A program made the position numbers. From a virus (Duplodnaviria > Heunggongvirae > Uroviricota > Caudoviricetes): a DNA stretch of 42,375 nt. How positions within the stretch are numbered: the first letter of the stretch is position 1; every line of letters starts with the position of its first letter. The stretch is from the IMG/VR virus record IMGVR_UViG_2802429217_000003. One strand, 5' to 3'. Positions 6,001 to 9,000 of this stretch are shown in pieces.

Positions 6001-9000
6001 GTGGTATTTTAATACTTTTGCTTTCTTGAATTTCTTTATTGCAAAGGTGGTAAGCACATTTGATTTTCTTAGCCATCACCATGATTCCGCTTTTACAGGT
6101 AAACCATCACGACCGAGGAAGACTTTAATCATGCAGTCAGAAATGCATGTTTTTGTAGTCAGGCTACGAATATAAAGTTTTCGCTTTTTAATATTGTTTG
6201 CCGAGGCGATATATGTCCGACCTTCATGAAGAACATAATCGCCAGGGGTTACACACTGACGTGGTATTTCATCAGTTCCGAAGTGATGTGCAATCATAAT
6301 CATCTCCATTTTTTCAAATGAACTTTGTTGATGCGGTGCCTGGTGCCTCCAGGTGATGTTAACCAGTTAACAATTAACACCGGATACAAATACCCCCCCA
6401 AACTAATATAGAGTTTTTTAACTGTTCCGCGTGCGCTTAGCCGCATTCACCGCATCACAAAATTCACTTTAAAAAGGGCGGACATCAGTCGAACTTCAAG
6501 AAAAAACCGATGCCGCCAAAGACTACACACAGCAATGTCGTTATTCACAACCGGAGGCGCACTCCCACCATTTATATTTAACAGACAAGACCGACTCTTT
6601 ATGGATACCGGAAATGCGCCTTCGTGTTGTGCCCGGTTTTATTTCACCACCTCCGGGCTTCGGTGGTCTCGGCTATACCCCTACAGCGAGAGCTTGTGTT
6701 AACATTTCAATACCCTTACAGTCGAGAGTTATTGAAATGTTGGATGTATTTACTCCATTGTTGAAACTTTTTGCTAACGAGCCACTCGAAAGACTTATGT
6801 ACACGATTATCATTTTTGGCCTCACTCTCTGGCTGATACCGAAAGAGTTTGCTGTCGTATTTAATGCTTATACTGAAATACCCTGGCTCTTTCAGATTAT
6901 AGGTTTTGCCTTTTCTTTCGTGGTTGCCATTTCCTTCTCAAGATTGCGAGCACATATTCAAAAACATTATTCATTGCTACCAGAGCAACGAGTATTGCTT
7001 CGTTTATCTGAGAAAGAAATCGCTGTATTTAAAGATTTCCTTAAAACAGGAAATCTTATTATCACTTCTCCTTGCCGTAACCCGGTTATGAAAAAATTAG
7101 AACGGAAGGGCATCATTCAACATCAGAGTGATGGCGCAAACTGTTCTTATTATCTCGTCACCGAAAAATACTCCCACTTTATGAAGTTATTCTGGAACAG
7201 TAGGAGCAGACGTTTTAATCGTTAGCTTACTGTGTACTTCTCCAACCAGCGACGCGCGCCAACTTCGGTTTTAAACGTTTTGCTTTTGGTATACGTCATG
7301 GCGGTGAACGTTCCATCCTGGTTGGGGAACACGCCACACACCAGGGATTCGTTGTTGCTAAGATCGATAGTATCCATGTTGACCTCATTTTCCCTTAACG
7401 CTGGGGGAATTGGCTTCATAGTTGCTCCGTATCGTGGAGCCTACGACCTGCTTTTAACCACATCAGGTGAGGTGATATCCTTACAAATGGTAATTTGCTG
7501 TAAGGATATTAATTATGGATATTAAATTTCGCTGTCCTCATTGCCGATCTCGCTACATTGAGATCGATGAGCACTCTGGCTCTGACAATGATCGTTTTAT
7601 CTGCGGTGATTGTTTTGCGGAAATCAAAGATTCTGATTTCAGTGAACACTTTAATAAAACAATCAATAAAATCATCCGGACAGTTAAAAACCGCAGGAAC
7701 AAGTAGTTTGTATAACTTCTCAATCTGATGTCTCAGGGGGCTGGTATCTATTTTTAACACCAGTCCCTGCTTTTCATCTGCGATCATCTTCGTATCCCCT
7801 TAACGCCGGGTGGCGGAACTGTTTGCTGAGAACACCGTGCGGTGTTTTGGTGTGGTTAATTTAGAATAACCTAACAAGACAGGCAAGCACTTTTTGTTAG
7901 ATCAACCTAACAAAAAGTGTGTTGGGATATAACAGACTGAAAAGAAAGCTATTTTATAGATTTGTTTTTACGAGCTTTGAGCATTTCTTCGAAAAGTCTA
8001 TTGAAATTCTCAACTCTAGCGCGCATTTCAGACAGCAATGCTTCCTGCTCGGAGGATGGTAGAGCATCGAATAATTCAATCAATTCTTTGTGGCTGGGAG
8101 TTAGCTCGTTTTCCACATGAAGCTCTTGTGCTGGCAATGGTGTTTTGTCTTCGTCACCAAACATTAGCCACGTAGGTGAGCACTTCAGAGCATCCGCTAA
8201 AGCAAACAGTCGCTTCCCTACAGGTTGGGTTTCATCTCTTTCCCATTGAGAAATGGTGACGTGAGCAACCCCAGCGAGACGTGCGACTTCTCGTTGTGTC
8301 AGGCGTAATTCTTTTCGTCTTGCCAGAGCTCGCTGGCCTAGTGTTTTTGTATCCATAGTTAGGTAATTCTAATTTTTCTTGACTTAGGTATCCCGCGCAC
8401 ATTAGTGTTAGGAATATCTAACAAAGGGGGCTTTGATGTTTAAAGTTGATGCAATTATTTTTTTTGGTAGCAAGACAAAGCTTGCCAGTGCCGCAGGAGT
8501 AAGGCTGGCAAGTATTGCTGCATGGGGGGAGCTGGTCCCAGAAGGTCGCGCGATGCGTCTGCAAGAGGCATCTGGCGGAGAGCTTCAGTACGATCCCAAG
8601 GTTTATGACGAATATCGTAAGGCAAAGCGGGCGGGTAAGGGTATTCATGAAAATCAGGCATGAGCACATTGAATCAGTGTTGTTAGCTCTGGCTGCCGAA
8701 AAAGGTCAGGCGTGGGTTGCCAACGCAATTACTGAAGAATATTTGCGCCAGGGGGAGAGTGAATTAGCCTTGGCGCCAGGCAAGGACTGGAACAATCAGC
8801 AAAACATCTATCACCGCTGGTTAAAAGGTGAAACAAAGGCGCAAAGGGAAAAAATCCAGAAGCTGATTCCTGCAATCCTGGCAATTCTTCCGCGCGAACT
8901 GCGACACCGCCTCAGCGTTTTTGACACCCTGGAACGTCGCGCATTACTGGCGGCTCAGGAAGCGCTGAATACGGCAATTGATGCGCATGATGATGCAGTT

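What the first reader, a model, noticed from the sequence alone, without database searches (positions are those of the whole stretch)
7509..7851. Fully overlapping antisense ORF pair at the start of the early-left operon; the plus-strand ORF encodes a zinc-ribbon-like peptide
The minus-strand ydaG-like ORF (92 aa) and a plus-strand 63-aa ORF (MDIKFRCPHCRSRYIEIDEHSGSDNDRFICGDCFAEIKD..., CxxC...CxxC) each have a plausible Shine-Dalgarno. A plus-strand hairpin plus T-run (AACACCG-TG-CGGTGTT then TTTGG, 7831-7851) could terminate the plus-strand transcript. At most one may be the real gene, or they form a sense/antisense pair.
Basis: seen in the sequence. Interest (0 to 1): 0.35.

Follow-up and report, generated by a model that had tools for sequence, protein, structure and literature searches.

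The report
Prophage cassette coding on both strands
A 390-base cassette just after the prophage's early-left promoter carries two fully overlapping genes on opposite strands, a small zinc-ribbon protein and a 92-residue early protein. Comparison with related phages indicates that both are real genes and not one gene plus its shadow.

Summary
The two ORFs exist exactly as described: minus 7509-7787 (92 aa) and plus 7515-7706 (63 aa). Each has a Shine-Dalgarno sequence.

They lie in a mobile cassette (about 7423-7810) inserted between a DicA-like repressor and ydaF. It occurs in 29 of 5426 complete E. coli genomes.

The plus ORF is a divergent relative of the NCBIfam ECs_2282 zinc-binding family. 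It has the same position, orientation and promoter-like leader as ECs_2282.

The minus ORF is not YdaG-like by sequence. It is homologous to phage HK639 gp45, the first early-left gene, and to phrog_29546.

Both ORFs are open, with conserved starts and SDs, in all 5 diverged clades of the window's family and in HK639, Klebsiella and Enterobacter phages.

- Plus frame: four invariant Cys columns using only TGT/TGC, and dNN/dSN of 0.30.
- Minus frame: its non-overlapping N-terminal 23-30 codons are conserved only in that frame (profile-profile E=9e-9, synonymous Leu codon turnover). Inside the overlap its dNN/dNS is 0.43, against a median of 0.88 for phantom frames of control genes.

Expression is untested. 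I infer mutually exclusive lysogenic and lytic expression by convergent transcription.

The parts
7423..7810 (.). Mobile cassette holding both ORFs and their signals. It is absent from Qin-like dicA-ydfA loci.
   Evidence: Alignment boundaries against Salmonella L003, E. coli L006 and metagenome L007. Qin-like L002 and L039 have dicA next to ydfA with no insert. 29 of 5426 E. coli genomes carry it.
7515..7706 (+). 63-aa zinc-ribbon ORF (CPHC-x19-CGDC plus a C-terminal helix). Divergent relative of the ECs_2282 family.
   Evidence: NF047912 E=1.3e-7, 31.4 bits, full length. All 10 family members hit it. ATG and stop fall in the same alignment column in all clades. The Cys columns use only TGT/TGC. 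dNN/dSN is 0.30 [0.20-0.41]. AF2 pLDDT is 71, a beta-hairpin plus a helix.
7509..7787 (-). 92-aa ORF, first gene of the early-left operon. PGAP calls it hypothetical protein WP_001406915.1. It is HK639 gp45-like.
   Evidence: annotation. Exhaustive phmmer found only 4 distant relatives of similar length, about 42-50% identical over the matched stretch. hhalign against HK639_45 gives prob 94%, E=1.2e-7. AF2 pLDDT is 78, pTM 0.66. dNN/dNS is 0.43 [0.29-0.59], against 0.65-1.28 for phantom frames of 16 control gene pairs.
7707..7787 (-). Non-overlapping N-terminal 27 codons of the minus ORF. Motif: L-[VI]-L-x-[IMV]-[DE]...Q-[IVF]-x-x-L-x-x-LL.
   Evidence: Conserved only in this frame: summed score 163 against at most 114 for the other five frames, with a shuffled null of 115+-7.6. 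The Leu columns use TTA, CTT, CTC, CTG, CTA and TTG. hhalign of N-terminal segments only, against HK639, Klebsiella and Sakai, gives E=9.4e-9.
7502..7506 (+). Shine-Dalgarno AAGGA of the plus ORF.
   Evidence: An SD is present 7-9 nt before the ATG in every clade.
7795..7801 (-). Shine-Dalgarno AAGGGGA of the minus ORF.
   Evidence: An SD is present in every clade.
7795..7820 (-). Invariant 5'UTR/SD block of the first early-left gene (AGTTCCGCCACCCGGCGTTAAGGGGA on the minus strand).
   Evidence: Identical before ydaG in K-12 Rac, before ydfA in Qin-like loci, and before the minus ORF here and in L006.
7454..7481 (+). Promoter-like leader of the plus gene: TTAACC, 16 nt, then TGA-TATCCT (extended -10-like).
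   Evidence: The core 7458-7480 is unique in the window, with 0 matches expected by chance. The same motif precedes ECs_2282 and three other unrelated anti-pL genes. Nearly invariant within clade A: 2 variable sites in 92 nt. That it acts as a promoter is inferred.
7475..7509 (+). Inverted repeat ATATCCTTACA / TGTAAGGATAT pairing the -10-like box with the plus SD.
   Evidence: A stem at the same place but of different sequence occurs in 7 of 10 leaders. Its role is unresolved.
7734..7774 (+). Plus-strand hairpin (CAGGGGGCTGGT...ACCAGTCCCTG) followed by CTTTT. Candidate terminator of the plus gene, inside the minus N-terminal coding segment.
   Evidence: Window fold -28.3 kcal/mol, z=-2.95. Hairpins with a U-rich tail at the same place but of different sequence occur in clades B and C. 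Loops are 13-20 nt, so this is only terminator-like.
7831..7851 (+). It is part of the DicA-type early-left leader, not of the cassette.
   Evidence: Conserved in L002 and L039 and in more than 2000 genomes that lack the cassette. Not listed by the terminator scan.
7949..8356 (-). DicA-like repressor (context). The early-left promoter and operator region lies at 7860-7945.
   Evidence: NF007257 DicA 220 bits. Repeats AACCTAACAA at 7868-7877 and 7904-7913.

Best explanation
The region is a mobile cassette that codes for protein on both strands.

The minus strand carries the first gene of the repressor-controlled early-left operon, a 92-aa protein related to HK639 gp45. It starts at the invariant translation-initiation block that ydaG and ydfA use in other prophages.

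The plus strand lies entirely inside that gene. It carries a 63-aa zinc-ribbon protein of the ECs_2282 superfamily, with its own promoter-like leader, SD and terminator-like hairpin. It is transcribed towards the early-left promoter.

Shown here: both ORFs, their starts and their SDs are conserved together from E. coli, Salmonella and Klebsiella prophages to phage HK639, and each frame carries coding-type constraint that the other frame cannot explain.

Inferred: in the lysogen the repressor silences the early-left promoter and only the zinc-ribbon gene is expressed. After induction, early-left transcription runs through the cassette, produces the 92-aa protein, and shuts off the convergent zinc-ribbon gene by transcriptional interference and antisense pairing. 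The two products would then mark opposite life-cycle states.

The biochemical roles of both proteins are unknown. The zinc ribbon resembles Lar-type small phage proteins only weakly.
For: Plus frame:
- NF047912 hit.
- Same location and orientation as ECs_2282 in Sakai Sp12, and a shared leader.
- Four Cys columns use only TGT/TGC, while the minus residue toggles between Thr and Ala. The local GCA and ACA fractions are 0.27 and 0.26.
- The minus frame uses the rare Leu codons CTA/TTA exactly at the plus stop column.
- dNN/dSN is 0.30 [0.20-0.41]. All 10 inter-clade pairs fall at or below the 2nd percentile of length-matched phantom frames.

Minus frame:
- The non-overlapping N-terminus is conserved only in its own frame, z about 6, with synonymous Leu, Asp and Glu turnover.
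- hhalign of N-terminal segments only gives E=9.4e-9. The full protein against HK639_45 gives E=1.2e-7.
- An SD is present in every clade, and the initiation block is invariant.
- dNN/dNS in the overlap is 0.43 [0.29-0.59], against 0.65-1.28 in 16 control pairs. Pairs involving the window fall at the 0.6-2.5th percentile.
- Clade A polymorphisms fall 10/5/4 at plus positions 1/2/3, against 5/2/16 in the ECs_2282 clade.
- AF2 pLDDT is 78 from 7 sequences.

Both ORFs are open in all 10 distinct family sequences and in 6 distant phage loci.
Against: - There are no transcription or translation data for either strand.
- The data set is small: 62 shared codons, 5 clades.
- Constraint on the minus frame inside the overlap is moderate. 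It is not detectable in the ECs_2282 clade (w_anti 1.0) or in HK639 against phi18.2 (0.51 [0.19-1.25]).
- Within the window's own clade the plus frame is not demonstrably constrained (0.64 [0.17-3.1]).
- The window's plus ORF scores below the NCBIfam cut-off.
- This antisense phase keeps shadow ORFs open easily, and conserving codon position 2 preserves both frames at once.
- About a quarter of ECs_2282 loci carry a nonsense allele, so the zinc-ribbon gene is dispensable in some hosts.
- The promoter assignment and the expression switch are inference. The -10-like box is also one arm of an inverted repeat, which an RNA-hairpin reading would place inside the transcript.
Confidence: 0.6

Rival explanations
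1. Both strands are translated, but only the zinc-ribbon frame matters inside the overlap. The early-left ORF would have a functional N-terminal segment of about 28 aa. Its C-terminal 65 aa would be an unconstrained passenger that stays open because of the codon phase.
For: In the ECs_2282 clade and in the HK639 subfamily the overlap evolves like a single gene on the zinc-ribbon strand. Substitutions at plus positions 3/2/1 are 16/2/5 and 28/10/14. w_anti is 1.0 and 0.51 [0.19-1.25]. The strongest minus-frame evidence comes from the non-overlapping N-terminus.
Against: In the window's family the minus frame shows dNN/dNS of 0.43, below all 16 control pairs. Pairs with the window fall at the 0.6-2.5th percentile of length-matched controls. 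The recent clade A pattern favours the minus frame. The AF2 model is most confident (pLDDT 87-91) over residues 21-50, which span the boundary between the two parts.
Confidence: 0.25
2. Only the zinc-ribbon gene is real. The 92-aa minus ORF is a shadow ORF that gene callers prefer because it is longer.
For: This is the phase in which antisense stops are rare. NCBI curates the zinc-ribbon strand. The minus ORF has no Pfam or NCBIfam hit. The ECs_2282 clade shows constraint on the zinc-ribbon frame only.
Against: The N-terminal 23-30 codons lie outside the zinc-ribbon ORF. They are conserved as protein, with synonymous codon turnover, from the window to HK639. The start sits on the invariant early-left initiation block with an SD in all clades. 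The chance that the segment stays open is 0.10-0.20 per clade.
Confidence: 0.07
3. Only the early-left 92-aa gene is real. The CxxC...CxxC ORF is its shadow.
For: PGAP and phage annotators call the minus strand. Clade A substitutions favour minus-frame constraint. The window's plus ORF scores below the NF047912 cut-off.
Against: Four Cys columns are restricted to TGT/TGC. The ATG, stop and SD positions are invariant. The promoter-like leader is shared with unrelated genes. dNN/dSN is 0.30, with all pairs at or below the 2nd percentile of phantom frames. The ECs_2282 clade has 16 of 23 polymorphisms at zinc-ribbon position 3.
Confidence: 0.03

Closest known systems
NCBIfam NF047912, ECs_2282 family putative zinc-binding protein (E. 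coli O157:H7 Sakai prophage Sp12)
   Same: About 60 aa with CxxC...CxxC and a C-terminal helix. It sits in the early-left region on the strand opposite to the early-left operon. It has the same promoter-like leader, and a fully overlapping antisense ORF in the same phase.
   Different: The window ORF is only 25% identical to ECs_2282 and scores 31.4 bits, below the 37-bit cut-off. It lacks the CGR-I-[ST]-KDDVV motif of the HK639 and Klebsiella members. In the ECs_2282 clade only the zinc-ribbon frame is constrained.
Phage HK639 gp45 (first gene after pL and putL), with phrog_29546 and phrog_21318
   Same: An ORF of 92-115 aa in the early-left direction, with a homologous N-terminal motif and antisense to a zinc-ribbon ORF.
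   Different: Function is unknown in all of them. The window ORF matches phrog_29546 only at E=0.07. The Sakai antisense ORF is filed in a separate PHROG family. None of the records notes the zinc-ribbon ORF on the other strand.
Antisense overlapping genes reported in EHEC and Pseudomonas (e.g. ano/ECs2385 PMC5960689, pop/ompA PMC7103648, PMC8850804, bioRxiv 10.1101/2020.11.18.388249)
   Same: One protein-coding ORF fully embedded antisense in another. The purifying-selection test used here (dNN/dSN, dNN/dNS) is one I recall as used in that field (the OLGenie method). I did not check that in the papers.
   Different: From my own knowledge, not checked in the papers, those cases are mostly young and restricted to few taxa, and rest on expression data. 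This pair rests on deep comparative conservation of both ORFs, their starts and their SDs, with no expression data. The EDL933 copy appears only in a bulk BLAST table (Table S12) of the 2020 preprint.
YdaG of K-12 Rac
   Same: Same slot (first gene after the repressor in the early-left direction) and the same upstream SD block.
   Different: 44 aa, with no detectable sequence similarity and no antisense zinc-ribbon ORF.
Lar family restriction-alleviation proteins (PF14354, TIGR03655)
   Same: Small phage zinc-ribbon proteins encoded in Rac-like early regions.
   Different: The hits are far below threshold: PF14354 19.6 bits against 28.6, and TIGR03655 E about 5e-4 for 3 of 10 members. This is generic zinc-ribbon similarity only.

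Membership tests
NF047912 ECs_2282 family | HMM score at or above the curated cut-off (37 bits) | tested here: not met
   The window ORF scores 31.4 bits, E=1.3e-7, full-length alignment. Other members of its clade family reach E=3.1e-14. HK639, KP12 and ECs_2282 score 83, 67 and 57 bits.
NF047912 ECs_2282 family | Two CxxC pairs in a protein of about 60 aa | tested here: met
   C7, C10, C30 and C33 are invariant in all 10 sequences.
NF047912 ECs_2282 family | Location on the anti-pL strand of a lambdoid early-left region (context seen here, not a curated criterion) | tested here: met
HK639 gp45 / phrog_29546 | Profile match | tested here: inconclusive
   hmmscan against phrog_29546 gives E=0.07. 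hhalign of the family profile against HK639_45 gives E=1.2e-7, and N-terminal segments only give E=9.4e-9.
YdaG (K-12 Rac) | Sequence similarity to YdaG | tested here: not met
   BLASTP finds no alignment at E<=100.
Antisense overlapping protein-coding gene pair | Both ORFs intact across diverged relatives | tested here: met
   10 distinct sequences in 5 clades plus 6 phage loci.
Antisense overlapping protein-coding gene pair | Purifying selection on each frame that the other frame does not explain | tested here: met
   Plus frame: 0.30 [0.20-0.41]. Minus frame: 0.43 [0.29-0.59], against phantom controls of 0.65-1.28. The minus N-terminus lies outside the overlap. Support for the minus frame inside the overlap is moderate.
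Antisense overlapping protein-coding gene pair | Transcription and translation of both ORFs | not testable with these tools
   No expression data for this cassette. Only a bulk BLAST listing exists for the EDL933 copy.
   Not listed by the scan. It lies outside the cassette and is conserved where the cassette is absent.
Type I toxin-antitoxin | A small hydrophobic toxin and a non-coding antisense RNA | tested here: not met
   Neither product is hydrophobic or membrane-like, and both strands code for conserved proteins. No Rfam match falls within 7400-7860.
Lar restriction alleviation (PF14354 / TIGR03655) | Score above the gathering or curated cut-off | tested here: not met
   19.6 bits against 28.6. 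TIGR03655 does not reach its cut-off.

The most novel reading that the evidence does not exclude
The cassette is an ancient two-strand gene pair spread among lambdoid phages of Enterobacteriaceae. Its two proteins would be functional counterparts, with the zinc-ribbon protein made in the lysogen and the gp45-like protein made on induction. Their complete antisense overlap would itself be the mechanism that makes their expression mutually exclusive. That would be a protein-coding analogue of an antisense-RNA switch, selected on both frames over long evolutionary time.
Probability: 0.3. Interest if true: 0.8.

Novelty: new member of a known kind. Interest (0 to 1): 0.6.

Why it matters
From my own knowledge, fully overlapping antisense protein-coding genes in bacteria and phages are rare and disputed. 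Most reported cases are young and rest on expression data alone.

In this case both ORFs, their start sites and their ribosome-binding sites are kept together across phages whose proteins are only 25-50% identical. Each frame also carries constraint that the other cannot explain.

Public resources disagree about this DNA without noting it. NCBIfam and PGAP name the zinc-ribbon strand in some genomes. PGAP, PHROGs and the phage records call the opposite strand in others.

The pair sits at the first position of the early-left operon, facing the repressor-controlled promoter. It therefore offers a simple, testable model for a lysogeny/lysis expression switch built from convergent coding. Knock-outs of one frame that are synonymous in the other are available.

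Tried and rejected
- tblastn of both window ORFs against 50,697 phage records found nothing. The distant members appeared only when ECs_2282 was the query.
- The genome-contig scans gave nothing, or only spurious zinc-ribbon motif hits in Verrucomicrobia and Chitinophaga MAGs. The metagenome scan returned only near-identical copies.
- Foldseek of the minus-ORF model against PDB and BFVD gave no match better than E=0.08, so there is no functional lead.
- Rfam found nothing in 7400-7860.
- RNAalifold on the leader alignment found only an invariant CCAC/GTGG pairing with no covariation. The SD hairpin was out of register in the alignment, so I judged it from single-sequence folds only.
- BLASTP between the window minus ORF and the Sakai antisense ORF found nothing, and hhalign gave only E=0.07. 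The link became significant only with profiles of the N-terminal segments.
- Full-text searches for ECs2282 and HK639 turned up no study of either gene. The supplement of one EHEC overlapping-gene preprint lists the locus in a BLAST table only.
- I considered and rejected a type I toxin-antitoxin reading and a lambda N-like antiterminator reading. The N-terminus is not arginine-rich, and DicA-type prophages are not known to have N (the latter from general knowledge).
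Full report
**1. Observation**

The window holds the two ORFs exactly as described.
- The minus-strand ORF is 7509-7787, 92 aa.
- The plus-strand ORF is 7515-7706, 63 aa, MDIKFRCPHC...ICGDC.

They use the same triplets. Position 2 faces position 2 and position 1 faces position 3. In this phase, antisense stops correspond to the sense codons TTA, CTA and TCA, so shadow ORFs are common.

Each ORF has a Shine-Dalgarno sequence: AAGGA at 7502-7506 for plus, and AAGGGGA at 7801-7795 for minus. The hairpin at 7831-7846 followed by TTGGT is there, but the terminator scan did not list it.

**2. Context**

Family scans identify the surroundings.
- 7949-8356(-) is a DicA-type repressor (NF007257, 220 bits).
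- 8433-8663(+) is a DicC/Cro-like protein.
- 7222-7419(-) is a DUF1391 YdaF/YdfA protein.
- sieB lies at 6614-7225(+).

So the minus ORF is the first gene of the repressor-controlled early-left operon, and the plus ORF points towards that promoter.

PGAP annotates only the minus ORF, as hypothetical protein WP_001406915.1.

The stretch from about 7423 to 7810 is a cassette.
- Qin-like loci have dicA directly followed by ydfA.
- 29 of 5426 complete E. coli genomes carry the cassette.
- It also occurs next to different repressors in Salmonella (L003-5), another E. coli (L006) and a metagenome contig (L007).

**3.

K-12 YdaG (44 aa) shows no similarity to the minus ORF. However, ydaG, ydfA and the minus ORF all start just after the same invariant block, TCCCCTTAACGCCGGGTGGCGGAACT (7795-7820). 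This holds in loci with three different immunity regions. The minus ORF is therefore a positional analogue of ydaG, and it sits on a canonical early-left translation-initiation site.

It is not the cassette's terminator.

**4. The plus ORF is a relative of a curated family**

- It matches NCBIfam NF047912 (ECs_2282 family putative zinc-binding protein) over its full length. The score is 31.4 bits, E=1.3e-7, below the 37-bit cut-off.
- All ten distinct members of its own family hit that model, the best at E=3.1e-14.
- ECs_2282 itself lies in Sakai prophage Sp12, between the cI-like repressor and dicB. It is on the strand opposite to the early-left operon. It aligns with the window ORF at 25% identity, E=2e-4.
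- Both genes are preceded by the same motif, CTGCTTTTAACCAC[A/G]TCAGG[T/C]GAGGTG[A/G]TATCC.

**5. Relatives of the pair**

An exhaustive phmmer search with the minus ORF found only four distant relatives of similar length, about 42-50% identical over the matched stretch. A word-based profile search added a fifth.

I obtained their DNA. This gave ten distinct sequences in five clades. In every one both ORFs are open.
- The plus ATG and the plus stop fall in the same alignment column.
- The minus ORF starts 23-30 codons beyond the plus stop.
- The minus ORF ends two codons past the plus ATG in all but one clade.
- Both starts have an SD.

From local codon usage, the chance of this per clade is as follows.
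- Minus frame open across the overlap: 0.09-0.36.
- Plus frame open across the overlap: 0.07-0.31.
- Minus-only segment open: 0.10-0.20.

**6. Constraint specific to the plus frame**

- The four Cys columns contain only TGT or TGC, so the minus residue toggles between Thr (ACA) and Ala (GCA). If only the minus frame were selected, its third position would be free. The local GCA and ACA fractions are 0.27 and 0.26.
- Arg columns 13, 14 and 27 change synonymously in plus but give Ala, Thr or Ser in minus.
- The minus frame uses the rare Leu codons CTA or TTA exactly at the plus stop column.
- An OLGenie-type estimate gives dNN/dSN of 0.30 [0.20-0.41].
- Against 158 length-matched windows from single-coding flanking genes, all ten inter-clade pairs fall at or below the 2nd percentile expected for a phantom frame.

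**7. Constraint specific to the minus frame**

The 23-30 codons upstream of the overlap contain no plus-strand ORF.
- Summed BLOSUM local scores among four clades are 163 in the minus ORF frame. The other five frames score 85-114. The shuffled null for the best frame is 115+-7.6, with a maximum of 144 in 300 shuffles.
- The conserved Leu columns use TTA, CTT, CTC, CTG, CTA and TTG, and the Asp/Glu columns also change synonymously.

Inside the overlap:
- dNN/dNS is 0.43 [0.29-0.59].
- The phantom antisense frame of 16 control gene pairs from the same loci gives 0.65-1.28. Their dSN/dNS is 2.6-12, against 1.45 here.
- In the length-matched test, pairs involving the window fall at the 0.6-2.5th percentile. 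The family median of 0.38 lies below the 5th percentile of 0.43.
- Within the window's own clade, substitutions fall 10/5/4 at plus positions 1/2/3.

AlphaFold2 with only seven sequences gives a beta-beta-alpha-alpha-beta-beta-alpha model with pLDDT 78 and pTM 0.66. The highest confidence spans the boundary between the non-overlapping and overlapping parts. No structural neighbour was found.

**8. The wider superfamily**

A tblastn search with ECs_2282 against phage records found distant members in HK639, in four Klebsiella phages and in Enterobacter phages.

In four of the six records inspected, the annotated CDS is the antisense ORF and the zinc-ribbon ORF is not annotated. In the three with lambdoid context it runs in the early-left direction; the fourth (Klebsiella phage 2b LV-2017) lies among tail genes. 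In HK639 this is gp45, the first gene after pL and the putL-like RNA. The other two records (Enterobacter phage ENT1, Klebsiella phage 5 LV-2017) have no feature there.

- The zinc-ribbon ORFs of HK639, KP12 and Sakai score 83, 67 and 57 bits on NF047912.
- The antisense ORFs are PHROG families: phrog_29546 (KP12 at E=9e-61, HK639 at 3e-4, window at 0.07) and phrog_21318 (Sakai).
- The window's minus family aligns to HK639 gp45 with probability 94%, E=1.2e-7.
- Profiles built only from the non-overlapping N-terminal segments align with probability 95.7%, E=9.4e-9.
- Between HK639 and phi18.2, 13 of 27 N-terminal residues are identical, and 8 of those use different codons.

So the early-left ORF is a real and old gene, and it has been paired with the zinc-ribbon ORF throughout.

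**9. Differences among subfamilies**

- ECs_2282 clade (80 loci, 14 CDS haplotypes). Polymorphisms fall 16/2/5 at zinc-ribbon positions 3/2/1. dNN/dSN is 0.13, phantom-type dNN/dNS is 1.0, and dSN/dNS is 7.8.
- HK639 against phi18.2 is similar: 28/10/14, 0.17, and 0.51 [0.19-1.25].

In those subfamilies the overlap behaves like a single gene on the zinc-ribbon strand. Constraint on the antisense frame inside the overlap is detectable only in the window's family.

About a quarter of ECs_2282 loci carry an E14* allele while the antisense ORF stays open.

**10. Signals of the plus gene**

The shared leader reads as TTAACC, 16-17 nt, then TGn-TAT(C/A)CT, which resembles an extended -10 promoter (7454-7481). 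It precedes five unrelated small genes on the anti-pL strand. One of them is an unannotated 106-aa membrane ORF in a Qin-like prophage. A 37-nt core is identical in more than 1000 E. coli genomes.

In clade A the 92 nt upstream of the plus ATG have 2 variable sites. The overlap has 19 in 192 nt, and the minus-only segment has 16 in 81 nt.

An inverted repeat pairs the -10-like box with the SD. It occurs in 7 of 10 leaders, with different stem sequences. I could not decide whether it acts in the plus RNA, which would need an upstream start, or in the early-left RNA.

A plus-strand hairpin with a U-rich tail lies 25-35 nt after the plus stop in clades A, B and C, with a different sequence in each.

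**11. Interpretation**

Shown: a mobile cassette with two conserved, oppositely oriented, fully overlapping ORFs, each with coding-type constraint.

Inferred: the zinc-ribbon gene is expressed from its own promoter in the lysogen. The gp45-like gene is expressed from the early-left promoter after derepression. Convergent transcription and antisense pairing make the two mutually exclusive.

The functions of both proteins are unknown. Similarity to Lar is generic and below threshold.

The main rival keeps both ORFs translated but places all constraint inside the overlap on the zinc-ribbon frame. Pure shadow-ORF readings for either strand are unlikely.

**12. Literature**

No paper in the library mentions ECs2282 in its text, and a search for HK639 turned up no study of gp45. 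A preprint on embedded antisense ORFs in E. coli lists the EDL933 copy in a bulk BLAST table, with no expression entry found. From my own knowledge, antisense overlapping genes are a known but disputed category (papers listed). This is a new and unusually deeply conserved example.

Noticed in passing
window 1552-1730 (+) and 18334-18509 (+): RalA antitoxin sRNA (190 bits) and sok antitoxin RNA (105 bits) pass the Rfam gathering thresholds. The prophage therefore carries two type I toxin-antitoxin loci.
   Followed up: no
window about 6480-6531 (-): Partial DicF-like match (E=0.0055), cut off by the range I searched. It did not reach gathering score in the whole-window scan. K-12 Rac has the sRNA kilS at the analogous place between kilR and sieB.
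   Followed up: partly
window 6614-7225 (+): sieB is called a frameshifted pseudogene by PGAP in a genome 100% identical over window 7200-8400. The window itself has an open 203-aa ORF starting from an upstream ATG.
   Followed up: no
window 7454-7509; L008 20155-20230; L039 1500-1571; L003 3874-3983; L007 198-289: A promoter-like leader (TTAACC, 16/17 nt, TGnTAT(C/A)CT), plus an inverted repeat that pairs the -10-like box with the SD, precedes five unrelated small genes on the anti-pL strand of Rac/Qin-like prophages. A 37-nt core is identical in more than 1000 E. coli genomes under no annotated feature.
   Followed up: partly
L039 1572-1892 (+): An unannotated 106-aa ORF that appears to be a multi-pass membrane protein lies behind the same leader in a Qin-like prophage, between dicB and ydfB. 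It too overlaps a long antisense ORF.
   Followed up: no
L095, L097, L099, L103, L107, L115, L117 (ECs_2282 loci): The same E14* nonsense allele of ECs_2282 occurs on several flanking backgrounds, in about a quarter of IMG/VR loci. The antisense ORF is open in all 31 haplotypes.
   Followed up: partly
window 7795-7820: The block TCCCCTTAACGCCGGGTGGCGGAACT is invariant before the first early-left gene in loci with three different immunity regions, whatever that gene is (ydaG, ydfA or the 92-aa ORF). It looks like a recombination joint and shared translation-initiation region.
   Followed up: partly
window 7868-7913: AACCTAACAA is repeated at 7868-7877 and 7904-7913, with an inverted TTGTTAG at 7894-7900. 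These are probably the DicA-type operators of the early-left promoter.
   Followed up: no
NZ_CP027221 (L040 886-1187) versus NZ_CP033605 and others: PGAP annotates the same DNA as 'ECs_2282 family putative zinc-binding protein' in some genomes and as an antisense 'hypothetical protein, frameshifted' in others. PHROGs holds the antisense ORFs as families 29546 and 21318.
   Followed up: yes
L015 about 3247-3380 (minus strand of the locus): The leader is partly duplicated upstream of the zinc-ribbon ORF in the Klebsiella-type clade. There are two TTAACC...CCACAGTCAA...AAGG units in tandem.
   Followed up: no
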